Assembly: GCA_964016885.1 (NCBI GenBank)
Contig: OZ024743.1
Location: 332,754,001 to 332,818,000 of the forward strand
Direction of reading: 5' to 3'
DNA from: Eledone cirrhosa
Taxonomy: Eukaryota
Length of the DNA stretch: 64,000 nucleotides
In this document: piece by piece, positions 2,491 to 64,000 of the stretch
Numbering within the stretch: the stretch's first letter is position 1
How the letters are laid out: each line of letters opens with the position of its first letter
Program-made: the position numbers and the translations under genes
Notes under the pieces: generated by a model
Database searches by the model: none
Seen by the model: the letters and a program-made list of their open reading frames with translations, nothing else
Told to the model about the DNA's origin: nothing

Positions 2491-2670
2491 ATGGTAGTGC
2501 TGGTGCCATGATAAAATACACCCAGTATGCTCTGCAAAATGGTAGTGCAAGTGCCACGATAAAATACACAGTACACCCTGTAAATTGGTAGCGCTAGTGT
2601 CATGATAAAACATCCAATACACTCTCGAGTGGTTGGTGATAGAAAAGGGTATCTAACCATAGAAATCATG
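2491..2670 (+). repeat. Three tandem ~48-bp units followed by the remainder of the parent element
   Basis: atggtagtgctggtgccatgataaaatacacccagtatgctctgcaaa x3 (diverged), then gtggttggtgatagaaaagggtatctaaccatagaaatc. Confidence 0.85.
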
Positions 2671-10030: not shown

Positions 10031-10064
10031 CTTATGTCTCCAAAAAAGAAATAACTTTACATAC

Positions 10065-13015: not shown

Positions 13016-13490
13016 TTAATGTAAAATAAAATTATAATTAGATTCTCCAGCTGCTGTACCAATATGAATCACAATAAATTTTGCCTGAGATAGGTTAGCT
13101 CTTCCATCATACCCTCACACCATTACCCACTTATCCTGGTCCTTCTGTTACTGTTCTGTTTTCTCTTATATCCACCCTCAAGGTCATGTCGCCTTCATGG
13201 AACTTAAGGTAGTGATTACTGTATAGTCTTACAAAGCCTAAGATAAACTCAGTAGTGTTGGTGTCATGATAAAATACAGCCAGTACACTCAGTAAAGTTG
13301 TAGTGCTGGTGTCATCATACCAAACCCACCTGAAACCTCCCCTGGTTCAGTGATAAAACTGTCCATTTTAAACTGTTCATATCTAAATTAAAACATTCCA
13401 TCAAAATTTTATGAAAGAATTTTTTTTAAGTTCTAAATAAGTTAATAAAAAAGTTATTTTACTACAGAAAACCTCAAAATTATTGATTGT

Positions 13491-15311: not shown

Positions 15312-15346
<35 letters not shown>

Positions 15347-16501: not shown

Positions 16502-16527
16502 ATAGAAAAATAGGAATCTATACTTAC

Positions 16528-16751
16528 CACATACATTCCATATACATTATGGATATCCCGGTGTTCCCATCCATTTACATGAACTAAATCTTTTGGCATT
16601 GTAATCTCTGGTCCATTGAATACAGATGGCTCATTCATATCATTCCATATAAATACATCTTGTGTAGTTCCTTTGTACTCTTTCAAATCAAATTTACTGG
16701 CCCACCATTCACGTACAGTGGGATTCACAAAATCAGGCCAGCTGGACGAAC
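16528..16751 (-). CDS. GANAB: Glucosidase II alpha subunit (GH31), first coding exon visible in window (internal exon with catalytic nucleophile motif)
   Basis: Translates (G)[20 protein letters not shown]...[21 protein letters not shown]...[19 protein letters not shown] is the GH31 nucleophile motif. Acceptor ttttcag at 16754-16752, donor gtaagt at 16527. Confidence 0.95.
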
Positions 16752-17690: not shown

Positions 17691-18030
17691 GGTCTAACAC
17701 AACACACAACATGTATAAGATCTATATAAATATCTTATTTAATTGTTTAGTGAGAGAGGTGGGTGCCACAAGCCACCAGGCCAGCTCTGATCTAAGGCAT
17801 TCCAACAGTGATCATTCCATCTTTTTCCCAAACATGATATCTACATCATTCAAAATACAACATCAACAACTTCCCTACTTAGTAGGGACCTATGCCAGGC
17901 TTCATACTTACCATGGTAATACTTTAGGGCTGGATGGCTTTTCTGAAACCAACCCTTTTAGTCAATACAACATGCAGCTTGTATTAGGAGCATCTTATTG
18001 TGAAACCAGCACTACTACCTTTCAGGATGA

Positions 18031-21000
18031 ACTGGGTATTTTATTGAGCTATCAACACAACCCCTTTACAAAGTAGACTGGGAGTGTTTTATTGAGCTAT
18101 AAACACAACCACTTTACAAAGTAGACTGGGAGTGTTTTATTGAGCTATCAACACAACTTTACAAAGTAGACTGGGAGTGTTTTATTGAGTTATCAACACA
18201 ACTTTACAAAGTAGACTGGGAGAGTTTTATTGAGTTATCAACACAACCACTATACAAAGTAAACTGGGAGTGTTTTATTGAGCTATCAACACAAGCACTT
18301 TACAAAGTAGACTGGGAGTGTTTTATTGAGCTATCAACACAACTTTACAAGGTAGACTAGGAATGTTTTATTGAGGTTTCAACACAACTTTACAAAGTAG
18401 ACTGGGAGCGTTTTATTGAGCTATCGATACAACCACTTTACAAAGTAGACTGGAAGTGTTTTATTGAGCTATCGATACAACCACTTTACAAAGTAGACTG
18501 GGAGTGTTTTATTGAGCTATCAACACAACCACTTTACAAAGTAGACTGGGAGTGTTTTATTGAACTATTAACACAACCACTTTACAAAGTAGACTGGGAG
18601 TGTTTTATTGAGCTATCAACACAACTTTACAAAGTGGGATGGGAATGTTTTATTGAGCTATCAACACAACTTTACAAAGTAGACTGGAAGTGTTTTAATG
18701 AGCTATCAACACAACTTTACAAAGTAGACTGGAAGTGTTTTAATGAGCTATCAACACAACTTTACAAAGTAGACTGAGTGTTTTATTGAGCTATCAACAC
18801 AACTTTACAAAGTAGACTGGAAGTGTTTTATTGAGCTATCAACACAAGCACTTTACAAAGTAGACTGGGAGTGTTTTATTGAGCTATCAACACAACTTTA
18901 CAAGGTAGACTAGGAATGTTTTATTGAGGTTTCAACACAACTTTACAAAGTAGACTGGGAGCGTTTTATTGAGCTATCGATACAACCACTTTACAAAGTA
19001 GACTGGAAGTGTTTTATTGAGCTATCGATACAACCACTTTACAAAGTAGACTGGGAGTGTTTTATTGAGCTATTAACACAACCACTTTACAAAGTAGACT
19101 GGGACTGTTTTATTGAGCTATCAACACAACTTTACAAAGTGGGCTGGGAGTGTTTTATTGAGCTATCAACACAACAACTTTACAAAGTAAACTGGGAGTG
19201 TTTTATTGAGCTTATCAACACAACAACTTTACAAAGTAGACTGGGAGTGTTTTATTGAGCTATCAACACAACCACTTTACAAAGTAGACTGGGAGTGTTT
19301 TATTGAGCTATCAACACAACTTTATAAAGTAGACTGGGAGTGTTTTATTGAGCTATTAACACAACCACTTTACAAAGTAGACTGGGAATGTTTTATTGAG
19401 CTATCAACACAACAACTTTACAAAGTATACTGGGAGTGTTTTATTGAGCTATCAACACAACCACTTTACAAAGTAGATTGGGAGTGTTTTATTGAGCTAT
19501 CAACACAACTTTATAAAGTAGACTGGGAGTGTTTTATTGTGCTATCGAAACAATCACTTTACAAAGTAGACTGGGAGTGTTTTATTGAACTATTAACACA
19601 ACCACTTTACAAAGTAGACTAAGAGTGTTTTATTGAGCTATCAACACAACTTTACAAATTAGACTTGGAGTGTTTATTTAAGCTATCAACACAACTTTAC
19701 AAAGTGGGCTGGGAGTGTGTTATTGAGCTATCAACACAACTTTACAAAGTAGACTGGGAATGTTTTATTGAGCTATGAACATAACCACTTTACAAAGTAG
19801 ACTGGGACTGTTTTATTGAGCTATCAACACAACTTTACAAAGTGGGCTGGGAGTGTTTTATTGAGCTATCAACACAACTCTTCAAAGTGGGCTGGGAGTG
19901 TTTTATTGAGCTATCAACACAACCACTTTACAAAGTAGACTGGGAGTGTTTTATTGAGCTATCAACACAACTCTTCAAAGTGGGCTGGGAGTGTTTTATT
20001 GAGCTATCAACACAAATTTACAAAGTAGACTGGGAGTGTTTTATTGAGCTATTAAGACAACCACTTTACAAAGTAGACTGGAAGTGTTTTATTGAACTAT
20101 CAACACAACCACGTTACAAAGTAGACTGGGAGTGTTTTATTGAGCTATCAACACAACTTTACAAATTAGACTTGGAGTGTTTTATTAAGCTATCAACACA
20201 ACTTTACAAAGTGGGCTGGGAGTGTTTTATTGAGCTATCAACACAACTTTACAAAGTAGACTGGGAATGTTTTATTGAGCTATCAACACAACAACTTTGC
20301 AAAGTAGACTGGGAGTGTTTTATTGAGCTATTAACACAACCACTTTACAAAGTAGACTGGGAGTGTTTTATTGAGCTATCAACACAACCACTTTACAAAG
20401 TAGACTGGCAGTGTTTTATTGAGCTATCAACACAACCACTTTACAAAGTAGACTGGGACTGTTTTATTGAGCTATCAACACAACTTTACAAAGTGGGCTG
20501 GGAGTGTTTTATTGAGCTATCAACACAACTTTACAAAGTAAACTGGGAGTGTTTTATTGAGCTATCAACACAACAACTTTACAAAGTAGACTGGGAGTGT
20601 TTTATTGAGCTATCAACACAACCACTTTACAAAGTAGACTGGGAGTGTTTTATTGAGCTATCAACACAACTTTATAAAGTAGACTGGGAGTGTTTTATTG
20701 AGCTATTAACACAACCACTTTACAAAGTAGACTGGGAATGTTTTATTGAGCTACCAACACAACAACTTTACAAAGTATACTGGGAGTGTTTTATTGAGCT
20801 ATCAACACAACCACTTTACAAAGTAGATTGGGAGTGTTTTATTGAGCTATCAACACAACTTTATAAAGTAGACTGGGAGTGTTTTATTGTGCTATCGAAA
20901 CAATCACTTTACAAAGTAGACTGGGAGTGTTTTATTGAACTATTAACACAACCACTTTACAAAGTAGACTAAGAGTGTTTTATTGAGCTATCAACACAAC

Positions 21001-24000
21001 CACGTTACAAAGTAGACTGGGAGTGTTTTATTGAGCTATCAACACAACTTTACAAATTAGACTTGGAGTGTTTTATTAAGCTATCAACACAACTTTACAA
21101 AGTGGGCTGGGAGTGTTTTATTGAGCTATCAACACAACTTTACAAAGTAGACTGGGAATGTTTTATTGAGCTATCAACACAACAACTTTACAAAGTAGAC
21201 TGGGAGTGTTTTATTGAGCTATTAACACAACCACTTTACAAAGTAGACTGGGAGTGTTTTCTTGAGCTATCAACACAACAACTTTACAAAGTAAACTGGG
21301 AGTGTTTTATTGAGCTATCAACACAACCACTTTACAAAGTAGACTGGGAGTGTTTTATTGAGCTATCAACACAACTTTACAAAGTAGACTGGGAGTGTTT
21401 TATTGAGCTATTAACACAACCACTTTACAAAGTAGACTGGGACTGTTTTATTGAGCTATCAACACAACTTTACAAAGTGGGCTGGGAGTGTTTTATTGAG
21501 CTATCAACACAACAACTTTTCAAAGTAAACTGGGAGTGTTTTATTGAGCTATCAACACAACAACTTTACAAAGTAGACTGGGAGTGTTTTATTGAGCTAT
21601 CAACACAACCACTTTACAAAGTAGACTGGGAGTGTTTTATTGAGCTATCAACACAACTTTATAAAGTAGACTGGGAGTGTTTTATTGTGCTATCGAAACA
21701 ATCACTTTACAAAGTAGACTGGGAGTGTTTTATTGAACTATTAACACAACCACTTTACAAAGTAGACTGGGAGTGTTTTATTGAGCTATGAACATAACCA
21801 CTTTACAAAGTAGACTGGGAGTGTTTTATTGAGCTATCAACACAACTCTTCAAAGTGGGCTGGGAGTGTTTTATTGAGCTATCAACACAACCACTTTACA
21901 AAGTAGACTGGGACTGTTTTATTGAGCTATCAACACAACTCTTCAAAGTGGGCTGGGAGTGTTTTATTGAACTATCAACACAACCACGTTACAAAGTAGA
22001 CTGGGAGTGTTTTATTGAGCTATCAACACAACTTTACAAAGTAGACTGGGAATGTTTTATTGAGCTATCAACACAACAACTTTGCAAAGTAGACTGGGAG
22101 TGTTTTATTCAGCTATCAACACAACCACTTTACAAAGTAGACTGGGAGGGTTTTATTGAGCTATCAACACAACCACTTTACAAAGTAGACTGGGAGTGTT
22201 TTATTGAGTTATCAACACAACTTTACAAAGTAGACTGGGAGTGTTTTATTGAGCTATCAACACCACTTTACAAAAATAGACTGGGAGTGTTTTATTGAGC
22301 TATCAACACAACTTTACAAAAATAGACTGGGAGTGTTTTATTGAGCTATCAACACAACTTTACAAAGTAGACTGGGAGTGTTTTATTGAGCTATTAATAC
22401 AACCACTTTACAAAGTAGACTGGGAGTGTTTTATTGAGCTATCAACACAACCACTTTACAAAGTAGACTGGGAGTGTTTTATTGAGCTATCAACACAACT
22501 TTACAAAGTAGACTGGGAGTGTTTTGTTGAGCTATCAACACAACAACTTTACAAAGTAAACTGGGAGTGTTTTATTGAGCTATCAACACAACCACTTTAC
22601 AAAGTAGACTGGGAGTGTTTTATTGAGCTATCAACACAACTTTATAAAGTAGACTGGGAGTGTTTTATTGAGCTATTAACACAACCACTTTACAAAGTAG
22701 ACTGGGAATGTTTTATTGAGCTATCAACACAACAACTTTACAAAGTAGACTGGGAGTGTTTTATTGAGCTATCAACACAACCACTTCACAAAGTAGACTG
22801 GGAGTGTTTTATTGAGCTATTAACACAACCACTTTACAAAGTAGACTGGGAATGTTTTATTGAGCTATCAACACAACAACTTTACAAAGTAGACTGGGAG
22901 TGTTTTATTGAGCTATTAACACAACCACTTTACAAAGTAGACTGGGAATGTTTTATTGAGCTATCAACACAACAACTTTACAAAGTATACTGGGAGTGTT
23001 TTATTGAGCTATCAACACAACTCTTCAAAGTGGGCTGGGAGTGTTTTATTGAGCTATCAACACAACTTTATAAAGTAGACTGGGAGTGTTTTATTGTGCT
23101 ATCGAAACAATCACTTTACAAAGTAGACTGGGAGTGTTTTATTGAACTATTAACACAACCACTTTACAAAGTAGATTGGGAGTGTTTTATTGAGCTATGA
23201 ACATAACCACTTTACAAAGTAGACTGGGAGTGTTTTATTGAGCTATCAACACAACTCTTCAAAGTGGGCTGGGAGTGTTTTATTGAGCTATCAACACAAC
23301 CACTTTACAAAGTAGACTGGGAGTGTTTTATTGAGCTATCAACACAACTCTTCAAAGTGGGCTGGGAGTGTTTTATTGAGCTATCAACACAAATTTACAA
23401 AGTAGACTGGGAGTGTTTTATTGAGCTATTAAGACAACCACTTTACAAAGTAGACTGGAAGTGTTTTATTGAACTATCAACACAACCACGTTACAAAGTA
23501 GACTGGGAGTGTTTTATTGAGCTATCAACACAACTCTACAAATTAGACTTGGAGTGTTTTATTAAGCTATCAACACAACTTTACAAAGTGGGCTGGGAGT
23601 GTTTTATTGAGCTATCAACACAACTTTACAAAGTAGACTGGGAATGTTTTATTGAGCTATCAACACAACAACTTTGCAAAGTAGACTGGGAGTGTTTTAT
23701 TCAGCTATCAACACAACCACTTTACAAAGTAGACTGGGAGGGTTTTATTGAGCTATCAACACAACCACTTTACAAAGTAGACTGGGAGTGTTTTATTGAG
23801 TTATCAACACAACTTTACAAAGTAGACTGGGAGTGTTTTATTGAGCTATCAACACCACTTTACAAAAATAGACTGGGAGTGTTTTATTGAGCTATCAACA
23901 CAACTTTACAAAGTAGACTGGGAGTGTTTTATTGAGCTATTAACACAACCACTTTACAAAGTAGACTAGGAGTGTTTTATTGAGCTATCAACACAACCAC

Positions 24001-27000
24001 TTTACAAAGTAGACTGGGAGTGTTTTATTGAGCTATCAACACAAATTTACAAAGTAGACTGGGAGTGTTTTATTGAGCTATTAAGACAACCACTTTACAA
24101 AGTAGACTGGAAGTGTTTTATTGAACTATCAACACAACCACTTTACAAAGTAGACTGGGAGTGTTTTATTGAGCTATCAACACAACTTTACAAATTAGAC
24201 TTGGAGTGTTTTATTAAGCTATCAACACAACTTTACAAAGTGGGCTGGGAGTGTTTTATTGAGCTATCAACACAACTTTACAAAGTAGACTGGGAATGTT
24301 TTATTGAGCTATCAACACAACCACTTCACAAAGTAGACTGGGAGTGTTTTATTGAGCTATCAACACAACTTTATAAAGTAGACTGGGAGTGTTTTATTGT
24401 GCTATCGAAACAATCACTTTACAAAGTAGACTGGGAGTGTTTTATTGAGCTATTAACACAACCACTTTACAAAGTAGATTGGGAGTGTTTTATTGAGCTA
24501 TGAACATAACCACTTTACAAAGTAGACTGGGAGTGTTTTATTGAGCTATCAACACAACCACTTTACAAAGTAGACTGGGAGTGTTTTATTGAGCTATCAA
24601 CACAAATTTACAAAGTAGACTGGGAGTGTTTTATTGAGCTATTAAGACAACCACTTTACAAAGTAGACTGGAAGTGTTTTATTGAACTATCAACACAACC
24701 ACTTTACAAAGTAGACTGGGAGTGTTTTATTGAGCTATCAACACAACTTTACAAATTAGACTTGGAGTGTTTTATTAAGCTATCAACACAACTTTACAAA
24801 GTGGGCTGGGAGTGTTTTATTGAGCTATCAACACAACTTTACAAAGTAGACTGGGAATGTTTTATTGAGCTATCAACACAACAACTTTGCAAAGTAGACT
24901 GGGAGTGTTTTATTGAGCTATCAACACAACTTTACAAAGTAAACTGGCAGTGTTTTATTGAGCTATCGACAGAATCACTTTACAAAGTAGACTGGGAGTG
25001 TTTTCTTGAGCTATCAACACAACCACTTTACAAAGTAGACTGGGAGTGTTTTATTGAGCTATCAACACAACTCTTCAAAGTGGGCTGGGGGTATTTTATT
25101 GAGCTATCAACACAAATTTACAAAGTAGACTGGGAGTGTTTTATTGAGCTATCAACAGAACTTTACAAATTAGATTGGGAGTGTTTTATTGAGCTATCAA
25201 CAGAAACTTACAAAGTAGACTGGGAGTGTTTTATTGAGCTATCAACAGAACTTTACAAAGTAGACAGGGACTGTTTTATTGATCTATCGACACAATCACT
25301 TTATAAAGTAGACTGGGAGTGTTTTATTGAGCTATCAACATCACTTTACAAGGTAGACTGTGAGTGTTTTATTGAGCTAACAACACAACTTTACAAAGTA
25401 GACTGGGAGTGTTTTATTGAGCTATTAACACAACCACTTTACAAAGTAGACTGGGAGTGTTTTACTGAGCTATCAACACAACTTTACAAAGTAGAATGGG
25501 AGTGTTTTATTGAGCTATCGACACAATCACTTTACAAAGTAGTCTCTCAGTATTTTATTGAGCTATTAACACAACCACTTTACAAAGTAGACTGCGAGTG
25601 TTTTATTGAGCTATCAACACAACCACTTTACAAAGTAGACTGGGAGTGTTTTATTGAGCTATCAACACAACCACTTTACAAAGTAGACTGGTAGTGTTTT
25701 ATTGAGCTATCAACACAACTTTACAAAGTAGACTGGGAGTGTTTTATTGAACTATCAACACAACCACTTTACAAAGTAGACTGGCAGTGTTTTATTGAAC
25801 TATCAACACAACCACTTTACAAAGTAGACTGGGAGTGTTTTATTGAGCTATCAACACAACTTTACAAAGTGGGCTGGGAGTGTTTTATTGAGCTATCAAC
25901 ACAACCACTTTACAAAGTAGACTGGGAGTGTTTTATTGAGCTATCAACACAACAACTTTACAAAGTAGACTGGGAGTGTTTTATTGAGTTATCAACACAA
26001 CCACTTTACAAAGTAGACTGGGAGTGTTTTATTGAGCTATCAACACAACCACTTTACAAAGTAGACTGGGAGTGTTTTATTGAGCTATCAACACAACTCT
26101 TCAAAGTGGGCTGGGGGTATTTTAATGAGCTATCAACACAAATTTACAAGGTAGACTGGGAGTGTTTTATTGAGCTATCAACACAACCACTTTACAAAGT
26201 AGACTGGGAGTGTTTTATTGAGCTATCAACACAACTTTACAAAGTAGACTGGGAGTGTTTTATTGAGCTATCGACACAATCACTTTACAAAGTAGACTGG
26301 GAGTGTTTTATTGAGCTATTAACACAACCACTTTACAAAGTAGACTGGGAGTGTTTTATTGAGCTATCAACACCACTTTACAAAGTGGGATGGGAATGTT
26401 TTATTGAGCCATCAACACAACTTTACAAAGTAGACTGGGAGTGTTTTCTTGAGCTATCAACACAACCACTTTAGAAAGTAGACTGGGAGTGTTTTATTGA
26501 GCTATCAACACAACCACTTTACAAAGTAGACTAGGAGTGTTTTATTGAGCTATCAACACAACTCTTCAAAGTGGGCTGGGAGTATTTTATTGAGCTATCA
26601 ACACAAATTTACAAAGTAGACTGGGAGTGTTTTATTGAGCTATCAACAGAACTTTACAAAGTAGACTGGGAGTGTTTTATTGAGCTATCAACAGAACTTT
26701 ACAAAGTAGACGGGGACTGTTTTATTGAGCTATCGACACAATCACTTTACAAAGTAGACTGGGAGTGTTTTATTGAGTTATCAACACAACTTTACAAAGT
26801 AGACTGGGAGTGTTTTATTGAGCTATCAACACCACTTTACAAAGTAGACTGTGAGTGTTTTATTGAGCTAACAACACAACTTTACAAAGTAGACTGGGAG
26901 TGTTTTATTGAGCTATCAACACAACCACTTTACAAAGTAGACTGGGACTGTTTTATTGAGCTATCAACACAACTTTACAAAGTAGACTGGGAGTGTTTTA

Positions 27001-30000
27001 TTGAGCTATCAACACAAGCACTTTACAAAGTAGACTGGGAGTGTTTTATTGAGCTATCAACACAACTTTACAAAGTAGACTGGGAGTGTTTTATTGAGCT
27101 ATCAACACAACCACTTTACAAAGGAGACTGGGAGTGTTTTATTGAGCTATCAACACAACCACTTTACAAAGTAGACTGGGAGTGTTTTATTGAGCTATCA
27201 ACACAACTTTACAAAGTAGACTGGGAGTGTTTTATTGAACTATCAACACAACCACTTTACAAAGTAGACTGGAAGTGTTTTATTGAACTATGAACACAAC
27301 CACTTTACAAAGTAGACTGGGAGTGTTTTATTGAGCTATCAACACAACTTTACAAAGTGGGCTGGGAGTGTTTTATTGAGCTATCAACACAACTTTACAA
27401 AGTAGACTGGGAGTGTTTTATTGAGCTATCAACACAACAACTTTACAAAGTAGACTGGGAGTGTTTTATTGAGCTATCAACACAACCACTTTACAAAGTA
27501 GACTGGCAGTCTCTAATTGAGCTATCAACACAACTTTATAAAGTAGACTGGGAGTGTTTTATTGAGCTATCGACACAATCACGTTACAAAGTAGACTGGG
27601 AGTGTTTTATTGAGCTATTAACACAACCACTTTACAAAGTAGACTGGGAGTGTTTTATTGAGCTATGAACACAACCAATTTACAAAGTAGACTGGGAGTG
27701 TTTTATTGAGTTATCAACACAACCACTTTACAAATTAGACTGGGAGTGTTTTACTGAGCTATCAACACAACTTTACAAAGTAGCATGGGAGTGTTTTATT
27801 GAGCTATCGACACAATCACTTTACAAAGTAGTCTCTGAGTATTTTATTGAACTATTAACACAACCACTTTACAAAGTAGACTGGGAGTGTTTTATTGAGC
27901 TATCAACACAACTTTACAAAGTGGGATGGGAATGTTTTATTGAGCTATCAACACAACTTTACAAAGTAGACTGGGAGTGTTTTATTGAACTATCAACACA
28001 ACCACTTTACAAAGTAGACTGGAAATGTTGTATTGAACTATCAACACAACCACTTTACAAAGTAGACTGGGAGTGTTTTATTGAGCTATCAACACAACTT
28101 TACAAAGTAGACTGGGAGTGTTTTATTGAGCTATCAACACAACAACTTTACAAAGTAGACTGGGAATGTTTTATTGAGCTATCAACACAACAACTTTACA
28201 AAGTAGACTGGGAGTGTTTTATTGAGCTATCAACACAACTTTATAAAGTAGACTGGGAGTGTTTTATTGAGCTATCGAGACAATCACTTTACAAAGTAGA
28301 CTGGGAGTGTTTTATTGAGCTATTAACACAACCACTTTACAAAGTAGACTGGGAGTGTTTTATTGAGCTATGAACACAACCGATTTACAAAGTAGACTGG
28401 GAGTGTTTTATTGAGCTATCAACACAACTCTACAAAGTAGACTGGCAGTGTTTTATTGAGCTATCAACACAACTCTTCAAAGTGGGCTGGGAGTATTTTA
28501 TTGAGCTATCAACAGAACTTTACAAAGTAGACTGGCAGTGTTTTATTGAGCTATCAACATAACTTTACAAAGTAGACGGGGACTGTTTTATTGAGCTATC
28601 GACACAATCACTTTACAAAGTAGAATGGGAGTGTTTTATTGAGCTATCAACACAACTTTACAAAGTAGACTGGGAGTGTTTTATTGAACTATCAACTCAA
28701 CCACTTTACAAAGTAGACTGGGAGCGTTTTATTGAGCTATCAACACAACTTTACAAAGTAGACTGGGAGTGTTTTATTGAGCTATCAACACAACTTTACA
28801 AAGTAGACTGGGAGTGTTTTATTGAGCTATCAACACAACCACTTTACAAAGTAGACTGGGAGTCTCTAATTGAGCTATCAACACAACTTTATGAAGTAGA
28901 CTGGGAGTGTTTTATTTAGCTATCGACACAATCACTTTACAAAGTAGACTGGGAGTGTTTTATTGAGCTATGAACACAACCAATTTACAAAGTAGACTAG
29001 GAGTGTTTTATTGAGCTATCAACACAACTTTACAAAGTAAACTGGCAGTGTTTTATTGAGCTATCGACACAATCACTTTACAAAGTAGACTCCGAGTGTT
29101 TTATTGAGCTATTAACACAACCACTTTACAAAGTAGACTGGGAGTGTTTTATTGAGCTATGAACACACCCAATTTACAAAGTAGACTGGGAGTGTTTTAT
29201 TGAGGTATCAACACAACTTTAGAAAGTAGAGTGGGAGTGTTCTATTGAGCTATCAACACAACTTTACAAAGTAGACTGGGACTGTTTTATTGAGCTATCG
29301 ACACAATCACTTTACAAAGTAGACTGGGAGTGTTTTATTGAGCTATTAACACAACCACTTTACAAAGTAGACTGGGAGTGTTTTATTGAGCTATCAACAC
29401 AACTTTACAAAGTGGGCTGGGAGTGTTTTATTGAACTATCAACACAACCACTTTACAAAGTAGACTGGCAGTGTTTTATTGAACTATCAACACAACCACT
29501 TTACAAAGTAGACTGGGAGTGTTTTATTGAGCTATCAACACAACTTTACAAAGTGGGCTGGGAGTGTTTTATTGAGCTATCAACACAACCACTTTACAAA
29601 GTAGACTGGGAGTGTTTTATTGAGCTATCAACACAACAACTTTACAAAGTAGACTGGGAGTGTTTTATTGAGTTATCAACACAACCACTTTACAAAGTAG
29701 ACTGGGAGTGTTTTATTGAGCTATCAACACAACCACTTTACAAAGTAGACTGGGAGTGTTTTATTGAGCTATCAACACAACTCTTCAAAGTGGGCTGGGG
29801 GTATTTTAATGAGCTATCAACACAAATTTACAAGGTAGACTGGGAGTGTTTTATTGAGCTATCAACACAACCACTTTACAAAGTAGACTGGGAGTGTTTT
29901 ATTGAGCTATCAACACAACTTTACAAAGTAGACTGGGAGTGTTTTATTGAGCTATCGACACAATCACTTTACAAAGTAGACTGGGAGTGTTTTATTGAGC

Positions 30001-51000: not shown

Positions 51001-54000
51001 AAGTAGACTGGGAGTGTTTTATTGAGCTATCAACTCAACTTTACAAAGTGGGATGGGAATGTTTTATTGAGCCATCAACACAACTTTACAAAGTAGACTG
51101 GGAGTGTTTTCTTGAGCTATCAACACAACCACTTTAGAAAGTAGACTGGGAGTGTTTTATTGAGCTATCAACACAACCACTTTACAAAGTAGACTAGGAG
51201 TGTTTTATTGAGCTATCAACACAACTCTTCAAAGTGGGCTGGGAGTATTTTATTGAGCTATCAACACAAATTTACAAAGTAGACTGGGAGTGTTTTATTG
51301 AGCTATCAACAGAACTTTACAAAGTAGACTGGGAGTGTTTTATTGAGCTATCAACAGAACTTTACAAAGTAGACGGGGACTGTTTTATTGAGCTATCGAC
51401 ACAATCACTTTACAAAGTAGACTGGGAGTGTTTTATTGAGTTATCAACACAACTTTAGAAAGTAGACTGGGAGTGTTTTATTGAGCTATCAACACAACTT
51501 TACAAAGTAGACTGGGAGTGTTTTATTGAACTATCAACACAACCACTTTACAAAGTAGACTGGAAGTGTTTTATTGAACTATCAACACAACCACTTTACA
51601 AAGTAGACTGGGAGTGTTTTATTGAGCTATCAACACAACTTTACAAAGTGGGCTGGGAGTGTTTTATTGAGCTATCAACACAACTTTACAAAGTAGACTG
51701 GGAGTGTTTTATTGAGCTATCAACACAACAACTTTACAAAGTAGACTGGGAGTGCTTTATTGAGCTATCAACACAACCACTTTACAAAGTAGACTGGCAG
51801 TCTCTAATTGAGCTATCAACACAACTTTATAAAGTAGACTGGGAGTGTTTTATTGAGCTATCGACACAATCACGTTACAAAGTAGACTGGGAGTGTTTTA
51901 TTGAGCTATTAACACAACCACTTTACAAAGTAGACTGGGAGTGTTTTATTGAGCTATGAACACAACCAATTTACAAAGTAGACTGGGAGTGTTTTATTGA
52001 GTTATCAACACAACCACTTTACAAATTAGACTGGGAGTGTTTTACTGAGCTATCAACACAACTTTACAAAGTAGAATGGGAGTGTTTTATTGAGCTATCG
52101 ACACAATCACTTTACAAAGTAGTCTCTGAGTATTTTATTGAACTATTAACACAACCACTTTACAAAGTAGACTGGGAGTGTTTTATTGAGCTATCAACAC
52201 AACTTTACAAAGTGGGATGGGAATGTTTTATTGAGCTATCAACACAACTTTACAAAGTAGACTGGGAGTGTTTTATTGAACTATCAACACAACCACTTTA
52301 CAAAGTAGACTGGAAATGTTGTATTGAACTATCAACACAACCACTTTACAAAGTAGACTGGGAGTGTTTTATTGAGCTATCAACACAACTTTACAAAGTA
52401 GACTGGGAGTGTTTTATTGAGCTATCAACACAACAACTTTACAAAGTAGACTGGGAATGTTTTATTGAGCTATCAACACAACAACTTTACAAAGTAGACT
52501 GGGAGTGTTTTATTGAGCTATCAACACAACTTTATAAAGTAGACTGGGAGTGTTTTATTGAGCTATCGACACAATCACTTTACAAAGTAGACTGGGAGTG
52601 TTTTATTGAGCTATTAACACAACCACTTTACAAAGTAGACTGGGAGTGTTTTATTGAGCTATGAACACAACCGATTTACAAAGTAGACTGGGAGTGTTTT
52701 ATTGAGCTATCAACACAACTCTACAAAGTAGACTGGCAGTGTTTTATTGAGCTATCAACACAACTCTTCAAAGTGGGCTGGGAGTATTTTATTGAGCTAT
52801 CAACAGAACTTTACAAAGTAGACTGGCAGTGTTTTATTGAGCTATCAACATAACTTTACAAAGTAGACGGGGACTGTTTTATTGAGCTATCGACACAATC
52901 ACTTTACAAAGTAGAATGGGAGTGTTTTATTGAGCTATCAACACAACTTTACAAAGTAGACTGGGAGTGTTTTATTGAACTATCAACTCAACCACTTTAC
53001 AAAGTAGACTGGGAGCGTTTTATTGAGCTATCAACACAACTTTACAAAGTAGACTGGGAGTGTTTTATTGAGCTATCAACACAACTTTACAAAGTAGACT
53101 GGGAGTGTTTTATTGAGCTATCAACACAACCACTTTACAAAGTAGACTGGGAGTCTCTAATTGAGCTATCAACACAACTTTATGAAGTAGACTGGGAGTG
53201 TTTTATTTAGCTATCGACACAATCACTTTACAAAGTAGACTGGGAGTGTTTTATTGAGCTATGAACACAACCAATTTACAAAGTAGACTAGGAGTGTTTT
53301 ATTGAGCTATCAACACAACTTTACAAAGTAAACTGGCAGTGTTTTATTGAGCTATCGACACAATCACTTTACAAAGTAGACTCCGAGTGTTTTATTGAGC
53401 TATTAACACAACCACTTTACAAAGTAGACTGGGAGTGTTTTATTGAGCTATGAACACACCCAATTTACAAAGTAGACTGGGAGTGTTTTATTGAGGTATC
53501 AACACAACTTTAGAAAGTAGAGTGGGAGTGTTCTATTGAGCTATCAACACAACTTTACAAAGTAGACTGGGACTGTTTTATTGAGCTATCGACACAATCA
53601 CTTTACAAAGTAGACTGGGAGTGTTTTATTGAGCTATTAACACAACCACTTTACAAAGTAGACTGGGAGTGTTTTATTGAGCTATCAACACAACTTTACA
53701 AAGTGGGATGGGAATGTTTTATTGAGCCATCAACACAACTTTACAAAGTAGACTGGGAGTGTTTTCTTGAGCTATCAACACAACCACTTTAGAAAGTAGA
53801 CTGGGAGTGTTTTATTGAGCTATCAACACAACCACTTTACAAAGTAGACTGGGAGTGTTTTTTTGAGCTATCAACACAACTCTTCAAAGTGGGCTGGGAG
53901 TATTTTATTGAGCTATCAACACAAATTTACAAAGTAGACTGGGAGTGTTTTATTGAGCTATCAACAGAACTTTACAAAGTAGACTGGGAGTGTTTTATTG

Positions 54001-57000
54001 AGCTATCAACAGAACTTTACAAAGTAGACGAGGACTATTTTATTGAGCTATCGACACAATCACTTTACAAAGTAGACTGGGAGTGTTTTATTGAGTTATC
54101 AACACAACGTTACAAAGTAGACTGGGAGTGTTTTATTGAGCTATCAACACCACTTTACAAAGTAGACTGTGAGTGTTTTATTGAGCTAACAACATAACTT
54201 TAAAAAGTAGACTGGGAGTGTTTTATTGAGCTATTAACACAACCACTTTACAAAGTAGACTGGGAGTGTTTTATTGAGCTATCAACACAACCACTTTACA
54301 AAGTCGACTGGGACTGTTTTATTGAGCTATCAACACAACTTTACAAAGTAGACTGGGAGTGTTTTATTGAGCTATCAACACAACCACTTTACAAAGTAGA
54401 CTGGGAGTCTCTAATTGAGCTATCAACACAACTTTATAAAGTAGACTGGGAGTGTTTTATTGAGCTATCGACACAATCACGTTACAAAGTAGACTGGGAG
54501 TGTTTTACTGAGCTATCAACACAACCACTTTACAAAGTAGACTGGGAGTGTTTTATTGAGCTATCAACACAACTTTACAAAGTAGAATGGGAGTGTTTTA
54601 TTGAGCTATCGACACAATCACTTTACAAAGTAGTCTCTGAGTATTTTATTGAGCTATTAACACAACCACTTTACAAAGTAGACTGGGAGTGTTTTATTGA
54701 GCTATCAACACAACCACTTTACAAAGTAGACTGGGAGTGTTTTATTGAGCTATCAACACAACCACTTTACAAAGTAGACTGGGAGTGTTTTATTGAGCTA
54801 TCAACACAACTTTACAAAGTAGACTGGGAGTGTTTTATTGAACTATCAACACAACCGCTTTACAAAGTAGACTGGAAGTGTTTTATTGAGCTATCAACAC
54901 AACCACTTTACAAAGTAGACTGGGAGTGTTTTATTGAGCTATCAACACAACTTTACAAAGTAGAATGGGAGTGTTTTATTGAGCTATCGACACAATCACT
55001 TTACAAAGTAGTCTCTGAGTATTTTATTGAGCTATTAACACAACCACTTTACAAAGTAGACTGGGAGTGTTTTATTGTGCTATCGAAACAATCACTTTAC
55101 AAAGTAGACTGGGAGTGTTTTATTGAACTATTAACACAACCACTTTACAAAGTAGATTGGGAGTGTTTTATTGAGCTATGAACATAACCACTTTACAAAG
55201 TAGACTGGGAGTGTTTTATTGAGCTATCAACACAACTCTTCAAAGTGGGCTGGGAGTGTTTTATTGAGCTATCAACACAACCACTTTACAAAGTAGACTG
55301 GGAGTGTTTTATTGAGCTATCAACACAACTCTTCAAAGTGGGCTGGGAGTGTTTTATTGAGCTATCAACACAAATTTACAAAGTAGACTGGGAGTGTTTT
55401 ATTGAGCTATTAAGACAACCACTTTACAAAGTAGACTGGAAGTGTTTTATTGAACTATCAACACAACCACGTTACAAAGTAGACTGGGAGTGTTTTATTG
55501 AGCTATCAACACAACTCTACAAATTAGACTTGGAGTGTTTTATTAAGCTATCAACACAACTTTACAAAGTAGACTGGGAATGTTTTATTGAGCTATCAAC
55601 ACAACAACTTTGCAAAGTAGACTGGGAGTGTTTTATTCAGCTATCAACACAACCACTTTACAAAGTAGACTGGGAGTGTTTTATTCAGCTATCAACACAA
55701 CCACTTTACAAAGTAGACTGGGAGGGTTTTATTGAGCTATCAACACAACCACTTTACAAAGTAGACTGGGAGTGTTTTATTGAGTTATCAACACAACTTT
55801 ACAAAGTAGACTGGGAGTGTTTTATTGAGCTATCAACACCACTTTTCAAAAATAGACTGGGAGTGTTTTATTGAGCTATCAACACAACTTTACAAAGTAG
55901 ACTGGGAGTGTTTTATTGAGCTATTAACACAACCACTTTACAAAGTAGACTAGGAGTGTTTTATTGAGCTATCAACACAACCACTTTACAAAGTAGACTG
56001 GGACTGTTTTATTGAGCTATCAACACAACTTTACAAAGTAGACTGGGAGTGTTTTGTTGAGCTATCAACACAACAACTTTACAAAGTAAACTGGGAGTGT
56101 TTTATTGAGCTATCAACACAACCACTTTACAAAGTAGACTGGGAGTGTTTTATTGAGCTATCAACACAACTCTTCAAAGTGGGCTGGGAGTGTTTTATTG
56201 AGCTATCAACACAAATTTACAAAGTAGACTGGGAGTGTTTTATTGAGCTATTAAGACAACCACTTTACAAAGTAGACTGGAAGTGTTTTATTGAACTATC
56301 AACACAACCACGTTACAAAGTAGACTGGGAGTGTTTTATTGAGCTATCAACACAACTCTACAAATTAGACTTGGAGTGTTTTATTAAGCTATCAACACAA
56401 CTTTACAAAGTGGGCTGGGAGTGTTTTATTGAGCTATCAACACAACTTTACAAAGTAGACTGGGAATGTTTTATTGAGCTATCAACACAACAACTTTGCA
56501 AAGTAGACTGGGAGTGTTTTATTCAGCTATCAACACAACCACTTTACAAAGTAGACTGGGAGGGTTTTATTGAGCTATCAACACAACCACTTTACAAAGT
56601 AGACTGGGAGTGTTTTATTGAGTTATCAACACAACTTTACAAAGTAGACTGGGAGTGTTTTATTGAGCTATCAACACCACTTTACAAAAATAGACTGGGA
56701 GTGTTTTATTGAGCTATCAACACAACTTTACAAAGTAGACTGGGAGTGTTTTATTGAGCTATTAACACAACCACTTTACAAAGTAGACTAGGAGTGTTTT
56801 ATTGAGCTATCAACACAACCACTTTACAAAGTAGACTGGGACTGTTTTATTGAGCTATCAACACAACTTTACAAAGTAGACTGGGAGTGTTTTGTTGAGC
56901 TATCAACACAACAACTTTACAAAGTAAACTGGGAGTGTTTTATTGAGCTATCAACACAACCACTTTACAAAGTAGACTGGGAGTGTTTTATTGAGCTATC

Positions 57001-60000
57001 AACACAACTTTATAAAGTAGACTGGGAGTGTTTTATTGAGCTATTAACACAACCACTTTACAAAGGAGACTGGGAATGTTTTATTGAGCTATCAACACAA
57101 CAACTTTACAAAGTAGACTGGGAGTGTTTTATTGAGCTATCAACACAACCACTTCACAAAGTAGACTGGGAGTGTTTTATTGAGCTATCAACACAACTTT
57201 ATAAAGTAGACTGGGAGTGTTTTATTGTGCTATCGAAACAATCACTTTACAAAGTAGACTGGGAGTGTTTTATTGAGCTATTAACACAACCACTTTACAA
57301 AGTAGACTGGGAGTGTTTTATTGAGCTATGAACATAACCACTTTACAAAGTAGACTGGGAGTGTTTTATTGAGCTATCAACACAACCACTTTACAAAGTA
57401 GACTGGGAGTGTTTTATTGAGCTATCAACACAAATTTACAAAGTAGACTGGGAGTGTTTTATTGAGCTATTAAGACAACCACTTTACAAAGTAGACTGGA
57501 AGTGTTTTATTGAATTATCAACACAACCACTTTACAAAGTAGACTGGGAGTGTTTTATTGAGCTATCAACACAACTTTACAAGGTGGGCTGGGAGTGTTT
57601 TATTGAGCTATCAACACAACTTTACAAAGTAGACTGGGAATGTTTTATTGAGCTATCAACACAACAACTTTGCAAAGTAGACTGGGAGTGTTTTATTGAG
57701 CTATCAACACAACTTTACAAAGTAAACTGGCAGTGTTTTATTGAGCTATCGACAGAATCACTTTACAAAGTAGACTGGGAGTGTTTTCTTGAGCTATCAA
57801 CACAACCACTTTACAAAGTAGACTGGGAGTGTTTTATTGAGCTATCAACACAACTCTTCAAAGTGGGCTGGGGGTATTTTATTGAGCTATCAACACAAAT
57901 TTACAAAGTAGACTGGGAGTGTTTTATTGAGCTATCAACAGAACTTTACAAATTAGATTGGGAGTGTTTTATTGAGCTATCAACAGAAACTTACAAAGTA
58001 GACTGGGAGTGTTTTATTGAGCTATCAACAGAACTTTACAAAGTAGACAGGGACTGTTTTATTGATCTATCGACACAATCACTTTATAAAGTAGACTGGG
58101 AGTGTTTTATTGAGCTATCAACATCACTTTACAAGGTAGACTGTGAGTGTTTTATTGAGCTAACAACACAACTTTACAAAGTAGACTGGGAGTGTTTTAT
58201 TGAGCTATTAACACAACCACTTTACAAAGTAGACTGGGAGTGTTTTACTGAGCTATCAACACAACTTTACAAAGTAGAATGGGAGTGTTTTATTGAGCTA
58301 TCGACACAATCACTTTACAAAGTAGTCTCTCAGTATTTTATTGAGCTATTAACACAACCACTTTACAAAGTAGACTGGGAGTGTTTTATTGAGCTATCAA
58401 CACAACCACTTTACAAAGTAGACTGGTAGTGTTTTATTGAGCTATCAACACAACTTTACAAAGTAGACTGGGAGTGTTTTATTGAACTATCAACACAACC
58501 ACTTTACAAAGTAGACTGGCAGTGTTTTATTGAACTATCAACACAACCACTTTACAAAGTAGACTGGGAGTGTTTTATTGAGCTATCAACACAACTTTAC
58601 AAAGTGGGCTGGGAGTGTTTTATTGAGCTATCAACACAACTTTACAAAGTAGACTGGGAGTGTTTTATTGAGCTATCAACACAACAACTTTACAAAGTAG
58701 ACTGGGAGTGTTTTATTGAGTTATCAACACAACCACTTTACAAAGTAGACTGGGAGTGTTTTATTGAGCTATCAACACAACCACTTTACAAAGTAGACTG
58801 GGAGTGTTTTATTGAGCTATCAACACAACTCTTCAAAGTGGGCTGGGGGTATTTTATTGAGCTATCAACACAAATTTACAAGGTAGACTGGGAGTGTTTT
58901 ATTGAGCTATCAACACAACCACTTTACAAAGTAGACTGGGAGTGTTTTATTGAGCTATCAACACAACTTTACAAAGTAGACTGGGAGTGTTTTATTGAGC
59001 TATCGACACAATCACTTTACAAAGTAGACTGGGAGTGTTTTATTGAGCTATTAAAACAACCACTTTACAAAGTAGACTGGGAGTGTTTTATTGAGCTATC
59101 AACTCAACTTTACAAAGTGGGATGGGAATGTTTTATTGAGCCATCAACACAACTTTACAAAGTAGACTGGGAGTGTTTTCTTGAGCTATCAACACAACTC
59201 TTCAAAGTGGGCTGGGGGTATTTTATTGAGCTATCAACACAAATTTACAAGGTAGACTGGGAGTGTTTTATTGAGCTATCAACACAACCACTTTACAAAG
59301 TAGACTGGGAGTGTTTTATTGAGCTATCAACACAACTTTACAAAGTAGACTGGGAGTGTTTTATTGAGCTATCGACACAATCACTTTACAAAGTAGACTG
59401 GGAGTGTTTTATTGAGCTATTAACACAACCACTTTACAAAGTAGACTGGGAGTGTTTTATTGAGCTATCAACTCAACTTTACAAAGTGGGATGGGAATGT
59501 TTTATTGAGCCATCAACACAACTTTACAAAGTAGACTGGGAGTGTTTTCTTGAGCTATCAACACAACCACTTTAGAAAGTAGACTGGGAGTGTTTTATTG
59601 AGCTATCAACACAACCACTTTACAAAGTAGACTAGGAGTGTTTTATTGAGCTATCAACACAACTCTTCAAAGTGGGCTGGGAGTATTTTATTGAGCTATC
59701 AACACAAATTTACAAAGTAGACTGGGAGTGTTTTATTGAGCTATCAACAGAACTTTACAAAGTAGACTGGGAGTGTTTTATTGAGCTATCAACAGAACTT
59801 TACAAAGTAGACGGGGACTGTTTTATTGAGCTATCGACACAATCACTTTACAAAGTAGACTGGGAGTGTTTTATTGAGTTATCAACACAACTTTAGAAAG
59901 TAGACTGGGAGTGTTTTATTGAGCTATCAACACAACTTTACAAAGTAGACTGGGAGTGTTTTATTGAACTATCAACACAACCACTTTACAAAGTAGACTG

Positions 60001-63000
60001 GAAGTGTTTTATTGAACTATCAACACAACCACTTTACAAAGTAGACTGGGAGTGTTTTATTGAGCTATCAACACAACTTTACAAAGTGGGCTGGGAGTGT
60101 TTTATTGAGCTATCAACACAACTTTACAAAGTAGACTGGGAGTGTTTTATTGAGCTATCAACACAACAACTTTACAAAGTAGACTGGGAGTGCTTTATTG
60201 AGCTATCAACACAACCACTTTACAAAGTAGACTGGCAGTCTCTAATTGAGCTATCAACACAACTTTATAAAGTAGACTGGGAGTGTTTTATTGAGCTATC
60301 GACACAATCACGTTACAAAGTAGACTGGGAGTGTTTTATTGAGCTATTAACACAACCACTTTACAAAGTAGACTGGGAGTGTTTTATTGAGCTATGAACA
60401 CAACCAATTTACAAAGTAGACTGGGAGTGTTTTATTGAGTTATCAACACAACCACTTTACAAATTAGACTGGTAGTGTTTTACTGAGCTATCAACACAAC
60501 TTTACAAAGTAGAATAGGAGTGTTTTATTGAGCTATCGACACAATCACTTTACAAAGTAGTCTCTGAGTATTTTATTGAACTATTAACACAACCACTTTA
60601 CAAAGTAGACTGGGAGTGTTTTATTGAGCTATCAACACAACTTTACAAAGTGGGATGGGAATGTTTTATTGAGCTATCAACACAACTTTACAAAGTAGAC
60701 TGGGAGTGTTTTATTGAACTATCAACACAACCACTTTACAAAGTAGACTGGAAATGTTGTATTGAACTATCAACACAACCACTTTACAAAGTAGACTGGG
60801 AGTGTTTTATTGAGCTATCAACACAACTTTACAAAGTAGACTGGGAGTGTTTTATTGAGCTATCAACACAACAACTTTACAAAGTAGACTGGGAATGTTT
60901 TATTGAGCTATCAACACAACAACTTTACAAAGTAGACTGGGAGTGTTTTATTGAGCTATCAACACAACTTTATAAAGTAGACTGGGAGTGTTTTATTGAG
61001 CTATCGACACAATCACTTTACAAAGTAGACTGGGAGTGTTTTATTGAGCTATTAACACAACCACTTTACAAAGTAGACTGGGAGTGTTTTATTGAGCTAT
61101 GAACACAACCGATTTACAAAGTAGACTGGGAGTGTTTTATTGAGCTATCAACACAACTCTACAAAGTAGACTGGCAGTGTTTTATTGAGCTATCAACACA
61201 ACTCTTCAAAGTGGGCTGGGAGTATTTTATTGAGCTATCAACAGAACTTTACAAAGTAGACTGGCAGTGTTTTATTGAGCTATCAACATAACTTTACAAA
61301 GTAGACGGGGACTGTTTTATTGAGCTATCGACACAATCACTTTACAAAGTAGAATGGGAGTGTTTTATTGAGCTATCAACACAACTTTACAAAGTAGACT
61401 GGGAGTGTTTTATTGAACTATCAACTCAACCACTTTACAAAGTAGACTGGGAGCGTTTTATTGAGCTATCAACACAACTTTACAAAGTAGACTGGGAGTG
61501 TTTTATTGAGCTATCAACACAACTTTACAAAGTAGACTGGGAGTGTTTTATTGAGCTATCAACACAACCACTTTACAAAGTAGACTGGGAGTCTCTAATT
61601 GAGCTATCAACACAACTTTATGAAGTAGACTGGGAGTGTTTTATTTAGCTATCGACACAATCACTTTACAAAGTAGACTGGGAGTGTTTTATTGAGCTAT
61701 GAACACAACCAATTTACAAAGTAGACTAGGAGTGTTTTATTGAGCTATCAACACAACTTTACAAAGTAAACTGGCAGTGTTTTATTGAGCTATCGACACA
61801 ATCACTTTACAAAGTAGACTCCGAGTGTTTTATTGAGCTATTAACACAACCACTTTACAAAGTAGACTGGGAGTGTTTTATTGAGCTATGAACACACCCA
61901 ATTTACAAAGTAGACTGGGAGTGTTTTATTGAGGTATCAACACAACTTTAGAAAGTAGAGTGGGAGTGTTCTATTGAGCTATCAACACAACTTTACAAAG
62001 TAGACTGGGACTGTTTTATTGAGCTATCGACACAATCACTTTACAAAGTAGACTGGGAGTGTTTTATTGAGCTATTAACACAACCACTTTACAAAGTAGA
62101 CTGGGAGTGTTTTATTGAGCTATCAACACAACTTTACAAAGTGGGATGGGAATGTTTTATTGAGCCATCAACACAACTTTACAAAGTAGACTGGGAGTGT
62201 TTTCTTGAGCTATCAACACAACCACTTTAGAAAGTAGACTGGGAGTGTTTTATTGAGCTATCAACACAACCACTTTACAAAGTAGACTGTGAGTGTTTTA
62301 TTGAGCTAACAACATAACTTTAAAAAGTAGACTGGGAGTGTTTTATTGAGCTATTAACACAACCACTTTACAAAGTAGACTGGGAGTGTTTTATTGAGCT
62401 ATCAACACAACCACTTTACAAAGTCGACTGGGACTGTTTTATTGAGCTATCAACACAACTTTACAAAGTAGACTGGGAGTGTTTTATTGAGCTATCAACA
62501 CAACCACTTTACAAAGTAGACTGGGAGTCTCTAATTGAGCTATCAACACAACTTTATAAAGTAGACTGGGAGTGTTTTATTGAGCTATCGACACAATCAC
62601 GTTACAAAGTAGACTGGGAGTGTTTTACTGAGCTATCAACACAACCACTTTACAAAGTAGACTGGGAGTGTTTTATTGAGCTATCAACACAACTTTACAA
62701 AGTAGAATGGGAGTGTTTTATTGAGCTATCGACACAATCACTTTACAAAGTAGTCTCTGAGTATTTTATTGAGCTATTAACACAACCACTTTACAAAGTA
62801 GACTGGGAGTGTTTTATTGAGCTATCAACACAACCACTTTACAAAGTAGACTGGGAGTGTTTTATTGAGCTATCAACACAACTTTACAAAGTGGGCTGGG
62901 AGTGTTTTATTGAGCTATCAACACAACTTTACAAAGTAGACTGGGAGTGTTTTATTGAACTATCAACACAACCACTTTACAAAGTAGACTGGCAGTGTTT

Positions 63001-64000
63001 TATTGAACTATCAACACAACCACTTTACAAAGTAGACTGGGAGTGTTTTATTGAGCTATCAACACAACTTTACAAAGTGGGCTGGGAGTGTTTTATTGAG
63101 CTATCAACACAACTTTACAAAGTAGACTGGGAGTGTTTTATTGAGCTATCAACACAACAACTTTACAAAGTAGACTGGGAGTGTTTTATTGAGTTATCAA
63201 CACAACCACTTTACAAAGTAGACTGGGAGTGTTTTATTGAGCTATCAACACAACCACTTTACAAAGTAGACTGGGAGTGTTTTATTGAGCTATCAACACA
63301 ACTCTTCAAAGTGGGCTGGGGGTATTTTATTGAGCTATCAACACAAATTTACAAGGTAGACTGGGAGTGTTTTATTGAGCTATCAACACAACCACTTTAC
63401 AAAGTAGACTGGGAGTGTTTTATTGAGCTATCAACACAACTTTACAAAGTAGACTGGGAGTGTTTTATTGAGCTATCGACACAATCACTTTACAAAGTAG
63501 ACTGGGAGTGTTTTATTGAGCTATTAAAACAACCACTTTACAAAGTAGACTGGGAGTGTTTTATTGAGCTATCAACTCAACTTTACAAAGTGGGATGGGA
63601 ATGTTTTATTGAGCCATCAACACAACTTTACAAAGTAGACTGGGAGTGTTTTCTTGAGCTATCAACACAACTCTTCAAAGTGGGCTGGGGGTATTTTATT
63701 GAGCTATCAACACAAATTTACAAGGTAGACTGGGAGTGTTTTATTGAGCTATCAACACAACCACTTTACAAAGTAGACTGGGAGTGTTTTATTGAGCTAT
63801 CAACACAACTTTACAAAGTAGACTGGGAGTGTTTTATTGAGCTATCGACACAATCACTTTACAAAGTAGACTGGGAGTGTTTTATTGAGCTATTAACACA
63901 ACCACTTTACAAAGTAGACTGGGAGTGTTTTATTGAGCTATCAACTCAACTTTACAAAGTGGGATGGGAATGTTTTATTGAGCCATCAACACAAATTTAC
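18031..64000. repeat. Giant tandem satellite with 45/48-bp monomers, roughly 1000 copies by length, running off the window end
   Basis: Consensus caa(cca)ctttacaaagtagactgggagtgttttattgagctatcaaca repeated head-to-tail. The main length variant is a 3-bp indel. Confidence 0.99.

What the first reader, a model, noticed from the sequence alone, without database searches (positions are those of the whole stretch)
17925..64000. One 48-bp segment of an interspersed SINE-like element repeatedly seeds tandem arrays, from 1 to ~1000 copies in this window
Seen: the satellite monomer (caaccactttacaaagtagactgggagtgttttattgagctatcaaca) aligns without gaps to the 7.5-8.0 kb minisatellite unit (31/48 identical by hand count, both 48 bp). 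Its reverse complement also resembles the motif gtgctggtgccatgataaaatacacccagtacactctgtaaagtgg. That motif occurs as 1 copy (14160, 14715, 14855), ~1.4 copies (13251-13316), 3 copies (1400-1535, 2491-2630) and ~9-11 copies (7510-8035). At the left edge of the giant array the parent element's flank is still attached: ggctggatggcttttctgaaaccaaccc at 17928-17955 (cf. 15530-15560), then a transitional unit accagcactactacctttcaggatgaactgggtattttattgagc at 18005-18050. Inference: this segment is an amplification-prone 'satellite seed' spread by a retroelement, with each locus fixing its own variant independently. TE-derived satellites are known in general; whether this family is described I cannot tell.
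Basis: partly seen in the sequence, partly recalled or inferred. Interest (0 to 1): 0.75.

Follow-up and report, generated by a model that had tools for sequence, protein, structure and literature searches.

The report
Intronic satellite grown from retrotransposon tail
A 56-kb block of about 1,200 short repeats fills one intron of a glycosidase gene, and it likely grew in place from a small repeat that jumping genes carry in their tails, a known route to satellite DNA seen here in a probably octopus genome that makes such blocks from many sequences.

Summary
The array has ~1,200 units of 48/45 bp, spans 56.3 kb, ends 10.3 kb past the window, and fills 98% of one intron of a GH31 gene; one contig joins the two flanking exons. 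Its monomer is homologous to a dispersed unit (~75 loci/Mb). The parent is not just a SINE: the unit lies in the 3' UTR of single-ORF, RTE-like LINEs, already as an inherited dimer (27 of 31 ORF-linked loci), and singly in a SINE sharing that tail. So 1-2-copy loci are mostly inherited structure, not local amplification. Local expansion is real too: other arrays of 18 kb and ~57 kb and many of 1-9 kb exist, most with their own variant; this array's 20-mer occurs only here (584 of 584). Half (14 of 27) keep the parent's 3' flank. 'Amplification-prone' is only modestly supported: 2 of 47 randomly sampled arrays, 0 of 12 large ones; the genome is array-rich overall. Closest known: Ogre 3'-UTR satellites, squamate SINE-derived satellites. 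The scan noted what looks like the same process on other DNA of this genome. New member of a known kind.

The parts
18016..64000 (-). Giant tandem array, 48/45-bp units, continuing to window-equivalent position 74332 (G000:C4:332,828,332); element sense is the minus strand
17968..18014 (-). Terminal (3'-most) unit, parent-like, 57% identical to the modal monomer; the next unit (18016-18060) is transitional, 77%
17922..17956 (-). Parent element's 3' flank (segment that follows the last unit in LINE and SINE copies); no tail recognised beyond it
   Evidence: 27.1 bits vs control max 15.1; junction bridged by a single-copy contig with 0 differences, 17582-18093
16525..16751 (-). Exon of a GH31 glycosidase (likely glucosidase II alpha, name recalled); the intron holding the array ends at 16752 (AG)
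   Evidence: Pfam PF01055 positions 120-193, E 4.7e-17; upstream exon L012:371-568 gives positions 54-119; intron 57,618 bp, GT..AG
900..1389 (+). Decayed 3' end of the LINE ORF directly upstream of a 3-unit locus
   Evidence: tblastn E 3.6e-25 to the family's C-terminal peptide
1390..1531 (+). Three units in the LINE 3' UTR
   Evidence: 57-60 bits each
2495..2632 (+). Three units followed by the 3' flank
   Evidence: flank 33.2 bits
7477..8008 (-). 11-unit minisatellite with its own internal variant and parent-like end units; no 3' flank
13253..13316 (+). One unit plus the start of a second; no 3' flank
14167..14250 (+). Single unit plus 3' flank
   Evidence: 29 and 34 bits
14713..14990 (+). 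Two unit-plus-flank blocks 140 bp apart, ending in a tail with GAT repeats
15410..15572 (-). Short 5'-truncated copy: end of a unit, 3' flank, tail
   Evidence: flank 57.0 bits; sequence

Best explanation
The array is about 1,200 tandem copies of a 48-bp unit that also sits in the 3' UTR of single-ORF LINEs and their partner SINE, and it likely arose when a 5'-truncated copy carrying two or more units landed in this intron and then expanded in place by DNA-level unequal exchange or slippage. Shown: homology, parent flank, inherited dimers in young LINE copies, locus-specific monomer, parent-like end units, growth in multi-kilobase blocks, intron position. Inferred: that ready-made dimers at roughly 10^5 loci skip the slow first duplication and so make this unit a frequent seed; that a mutated unit swept this array locally; that the array has no function and is tolerated because splicing removes it.
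For: Parent: ORF ends 43-143 nt before the first unit in intact-looking copies; the ORF has RVT_1 and PHD and relatives of ~1,050 aa with endonuclease plus RT. Random sample of 134 x 10 kb: 100 loci, copy numbers 1:51, 2:42, 3:4, 4:1, 12:1, 15:1; 27 of 31 ORF-linked loci are dimers, 18 of 20 SINE-head loci single; 38 of 40 dimers inherited (0.71 within vs 0.92 same-position). Locus specificity: 584 genome-wide matches of a 20-mer, all 584 in this array; 194 of 248 units from 31 array pieces are closer to their own array, 0.91 vs 0.78; this array 0.94 within, 0.72 to the nearest other. Other large arrays: C1:57.678-57.696 Mb (~403 units of 44/47 bp), C7:41.63-41.688 Mb (ends and parts seen); both keep the 3' flank (24.4, 37.0 bits). 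14 of 27 arrays of 10+ units and 10 of 18 of 4-9 units keep the flank in the same orientation. Block growth: 92% of the array lies in repeated exact 200-mers, longest exact repeat 5,700 bp, 6,429-bp tandem duplication at 99.85%. End units are 57-77% like the modal monomer, inner end units 96-100%.
Against: 13 of 27 long arrays lack the 3' flank and only 1 of 27 has a weak LINE-ORF match upstream (E 6e-4), so their parent is inferred from the unit alone. Enrichment is weak: 2 of 47 random arrays (p=0.03), 0 of 12 arrays of 2 kb or more. 54 of 248 units do not cluster by locus, mostly short heterogeneous arrays. That arrays come from dimer-bearing rather than single copies rests on a terminal-unit signature chosen by eye (10 of 14 terminal vs 4 of 42 internal units, in a subset of 14 arrays). 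No orthologous pre-expansion allele was seen.
Confidence: 0.82

Rival explanations
1. The unit is not special: this genome expands any short tandem sequence, and the unit shows up only because it is abundant.
For: 47 arrays of period 20+ and 4+ copies cover 121 kb of 1.34 Mb; 45 are unrelated to the unit, most unique to their locus, and all 12 of 2 kb or more are unrelated. The 264 kb around the window hold other arrays of 5-31 kb with 20-, 21-, 28-, 36- and 41-bp units.
Against: 2 of 47 vs 0.6% expected share (p=0.03); SINE head (7.3 kb in the sample) and LINE C-terminal coding DNA (21.9 kb) gave 0 of 47 each. Compatible with the best explanation; it only removes the 'special seed' part.
Confidence: 0.35
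2. Variable copy number is made during retrotransposition: an old master with many units, cut at varying 5' points or extended by reverse-transcriptase slippage, supplies the 4-15-unit loci, and only the largest arrays grew afterwards.
For: Some 10-15-unit loci are heterogeneous (73-77% within) and do not cluster by locus; long arrays start inside a unit with no upstream parent.
Against: No position-specific likeness among internal units across 14 loci (0.70-0.72 for all pairs); ORF-linked copies have 2 units in 27 of 31 cases and at most 4; cannot explain near-identical multi-kb blocks.
Confidence: 0.15
3. The satellite came first and LINE masters captured its unit.
For: Raised as an alternative for Ogre repeats in PMC7004042 (passages read).
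Against: This monomer is private to one locus, very young in structure, and its ends are more parent-like than its middle.
Confidence: 0.03
4. The array length is an assembly artefact.
For: A 5.7-kb exact repeat could be a false duplication; no read spanning the array was seen.
Against: Both junctions are bridged by single-copy contigs with 0 differences; summed contig depth on the units is several hundred times the single-copy depth (2,000-8,000 vs 11 in X1; the tool warns this is not a copy number, and X1/X2 may be the assembled sample); 153 distinct monomers in the window.
Confidence: 0.04

Closest known systems
Satellites from tandem repeats in the 3' UTR of Ogre LTR retrotransposons, Lathyrus sativus (PMC7004042; 12 passages read)
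   Same: [quoted passage not shown]
   Different: Here a non-LTR element and its SINE in an animal; one unit gives many locus-private variants; this array is intronic, 46 Mb from the scaffold end, whereas Ogre-derived long arrays lie in primary constrictions.
SINE-derived satellites (sSat) of squamates (PMC10702118; parts 1, 3, 4 of 5 read)
   Same: A retroelement segment in tandem, a few to ~1,000 units, parent sequence kept at one end, terminal units unlike middle ones, longer arrays more uniform.
   Different: sSat units are 70-290 nt, homogenised between loci and subtelomeric, and no dimeric masters were found; here 44-51 bp, distinct per locus, and masters already carry the dimer.
Octopus RTE LINEs (RTE-2_OV, PMC9115989, section 6 and passages read) and the octopus CORE-SINE OR2 (named in PMC4758252, passages)
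   Same: Single ~1,100-aa ORF with endonuclease, RT and a zinc finger; a repetitive 3' UTR; SINE with a tRNA-like head.
   Different: No sequence comparison was possible; RTE-2_OV's 3' UTR is described as a microsatellite, not a 48-bp unit.

Membership tests
Retrotransposon-derived satellite (Ogre 3'-UTR type) | Monomer homologous to a tandem repeat in the element's 3' UTR at a fixed place and orientation relative to the ORF | tested here: met
Retrotransposon-derived satellite (Ogre 3'-UTR type) | Continuum from short in-element arrays to long expanded arrays | tested here: met
   1-15 units in the random sample; 10 to ~1,200 in searched loci
Retrotransposon-derived satellite (Ogre 3'-UTR type) | Element with short repeats predates the satellite (related species) | tested here: inconclusive
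   Run X5 (another organism) has contigs on the unit region at 85% likeness and none at 95%, but does not cover the orthologous exon
SINE-derived satellite (sSat) | Parent sequence retained at one end; distinct terminal monomers | tested here: met
   this array and 14 of 27 long arrays
SINE-derived satellite (sSat) | Long arrays homogeneous between loci | tested here: not met
   0.91 within vs 0.78 between; 584 of 584 private
SINE-derived satellite (sSat) | Origin from a SINE specifically | tested here: not met
   0 of 27 long arrays has the SINE head upstream; SINE copies are mostly single-unit; the tail is shared, so the source cannot be called a SINE
RTE-clade LINE (parent) | Single ORF with APE endonuclease and RT, short-repeat tail | tested here: met
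   (endonuclease seen in relatives, not in the 732-aa piece); GAT tails
RTE-clade LINE (parent) | Placement in the RTE clade in an RT tree with reference elements | not testable with these tools
   no named references; the RTE label is inferred and recalled
tRNA/CORE-SINE (OR2-like) | tRNA-derived head and CORE domain | tested here: inconclusive
   ARAGORN found 0 genes in 3 loci bearing the SINE; resemblance is recalled; no Dfam/RepBase here
Classical centromeric/heterochromatic satellite family | One homogenised sequence at many chromosomal sites | tested here: not met

The most novel reading that the evidence does not exclude
LINE masters that carry a ready-made dimer act as a genome-wide satellite library: some 10^5 pre-duplicated seeds, of which a few percent expand and each fixes a private variant with no homogenisation between loci. 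This would be a natural experiment for whether the first duplication limits satellite birth, with single-unit SINE copies as the built-in control.
Probability: 0.45. Interest if true: 0.55.

Novelty: new member of a known kind. Interest (0 to 1): 0.35.

Why it matters
It gives all stages of satellite birth from one seed in one genome (1, 2, 10, 400, 1,200 units) with an internal control, and shows a gene whose exons are joined across an intron that is 98% young satellite. The process is known from plants and reptiles; 8 literature searches listed no paper describing this family in cephalopods, but most subscription papers and the repeat libraries were out of reach.

Tried and rejected
Hairpin-driven instability: DNA folding z-scores of modal dimers from 30 arrays lay between -2.0 and +1.4, this array -0.5; rejected. 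Conserved RNA structure or ribozyme in the unit: mean z -0.11 for 116 units, consensus fold of 3 pairs; Rfam on 1-19500 gave nothing at a gathering score, mostly miRNA hits on an AT microsatellite; rejected. Ordered multi-unit master: no position signal. At a 14-bit cut-off several single hits fell inside the RT coding region, so counts were redone at 20 bits (112 loci became 100); the dimer test (40 loci) used the 14-bit set. In one search, 9 locus ids were dropped as duplicates or lacking the 3' end, and 4 more rows for short flanks. A genome-wide count of 4-unit runs could not be run, so the number of giant arrays is unknown; the C7 array interior was seen only in part. No RNA holder is on record; X4 is taken as RNA only because its contig joins exons. 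RAD-seq run X6 did not cover the exon. The look-up of earlier findings by sequence returned nothing. The O. bimaculoides genome paper was not held.

Full report
The array. TRF finds one array from 18039 to the window's end, period 48, 985.5 copies. Neighbouring stretches show it ends at G000:C4:332,828,319, 56.3 kb in all, with 1,208 profile hits on the minus strand. Units are 48 bp (639) or 45 bp (543) of 1,200 spacings; 48-mers average 96% identity to the commonest. 92% of the array lies in exact 200-mers that recur; the longest exact repeat is 5,700 bp, and duplicated blocks offset by 3.7 to 20.6 kb are 99.6-99.9% identical. Recent growth was therefore by large blocks (inferred: unequal exchange). 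Single-copy contigs of run X1 bridge both junctions with no differences, and depth on the units is several hundred times single-copy depth (not a copy number, and possibly the assembled sample).

Where it sits. Two minus-strand exons match consecutive parts of Pfam GH31 (54-119 and 120-193). The intron between them is 57,618 bp, GT..AG, and 97.8% array; the array starts about 37 nt after the donor site. One contig of run X4 (3,588 bp, depth 70.9) covers the first exon at record positions 1939-2145 and the second at 2141-2367, so the exons are joined; X4 is not on record as RNA, so 'spliced transcript' is inferred. The place is 46 Mb from the end of a 379-Mb scaffold. That the animal is an octopus is inferred from recall and from earlier scan notes; I did not test it.

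Homology. A profile seeded from seven dispersed window units and rebuilt from 148 hits in a random sample scores the modal monomer 32.7 bits, with 0 control hits at 16 bits or more. The 3'-most unit (17968-18014) and the flank beyond it (27.1 bits, control max 15.1) are parent-like, as is the 5'-most unit; identity to the modal monomer falls to 57-77% at the ends.

The parent. In 134 evenly spaced 10-kb stretches of contigs C1-C15 there are 100 loci at 20 bits or more (about 75 per Mb; extrapolated 2x10^5 per genome); a 23-mer of the flank has 75,134 exact matches. 31 loci follow the C-terminus of a LINE ORF, 27 of them with two units; 20 follow a SINE-like head, 18 with one unit; 49 have neither. 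The ORF has RT and PHD domains and resembles ~1,050-aa endonuclease-RT proteins, an RTE-like build. In 38 of 40 dimers both units are closer to the same-position unit elsewhere than to each other: the duplication is inherited from master elements. Longer periods of about 89 and 130-140 bp also occur, so masters duplicated this part of the UTR more than once. The window's 1390-1531 locus directly follows an ORF end.

Other arrays. Searches found an 18.3-kb array on C1 (44/47-bp units), one on C7 whose ends are ~57 kb apart (seen in part), and about twenty more of roughly 1-9 kb. These were found by similarity, not at random. 14 of 27 with 10+ units and the 3' end in view keep the flank in the element's orientation; 13 do not. 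Upstream, 1 of 27 has a weak ORF match and none the SINE head, as expected for 5'-truncated inserts or decayed ends. 194 of 248 sampled units are nearer their own array, and this array's 20-mer occurs 584 times in the assembly, all here.

How special is the seed? In the random sample, 47 arrays (period 20+, 4+ copies, not microsatellite-like) cover 9% of the DNA. Two come from this unit, against a 0.6% share (binomial p=0.03); none of the 12 arrays of 2 kb or more does. Two of 100 loci have 10+ units (95% interval 0.2-7%). So the unit is a recurrent seed in a genome that builds private arrays from many sequences. Hairpins and RNA structure do not explain it. The likeliest advantage is abundance plus a ready-made dimer; the terminal unit of long arrays often carries its own signature (10 of 14 vs 4 of 42; motif picked by eye), which fits but does not prove descent from multi-unit masters.

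Known relatives. Ogre 3'-UTR repeats gave most satellites of Lathyrus sativus (PMC7004042, passages); squamate sSats show SINE segments in tandem up to ~1,000 units with parent ends (PMC10702118, parts 1, 3, 4 of 5). This case works like the first and fails the sSat features of SINE origin and between-locus homogeneity. The O. vulgaris repeat paper (PMC13282606, parts 1-2 of 3) does not mention such arrays in the parts read; its library was not seen. Earlier scan notes report 30- and 37-kb arrays from an RTE/SINE tail in this genome; I did not check that they use this unit.

Verdict: real, retrotransposon-derived, locally expanded satellite; new member of a known kind; interest 0.35.

Noticed in passing
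134 random 10-kb stretches (L067-L200) and C4:332.65-332.92 Mb: The genome is very rich in large tandem arrays with unrelated 20-60-bp monomers: 8 of 134 stretches are filled almost end to end, by 7 different monomers, and such arrays cover 9% of the sample.
   Followed up: partly
window:6239-6700 and L193:1920-2800: The same 40-bp monomer (85% alike) forms arrays of 12 and 22 copies on two contigs with unlike flanks; it scores below threshold against the 48-bp unit, so it is a second seed of unknown parent.
   Followed up: partly
window:10497-13018, minus strand: DNA transposon with a long transposase-like frame (about 11300-12790, one stop seen; piggyBac-like by recall) between inverted ends.
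   Followed up: no
window:15780-16420, minus strand: 3' end of a different LINE (CR1/L2-like by recall) with an open frame of about 210 codons.
   Followed up: no
L067:6347-6612, L074:6769-6905, L079:7548-7813: A subfamily in which the same unit is repeated with an 89-bp period.
   Followed up: partly
L013 (window-equivalent 84220-86158): A 67-bp x 29 array whose monomer resembles the SINE's tRNA-like head by eye.
   Followed up: no
G000:C1:430.318-430.327 Mb (L215): An array of the 48-bp unit of at least 9 kb that abuts, at its 3' end, repeats containing telomere-like hexamers.
   Followed up: no
L116/L142 and L160/L170: 467-bp and 310-bp units in 98-99% identical tandems at more than one locus, perhaps internal repeats of young elements.
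   Followed up: no
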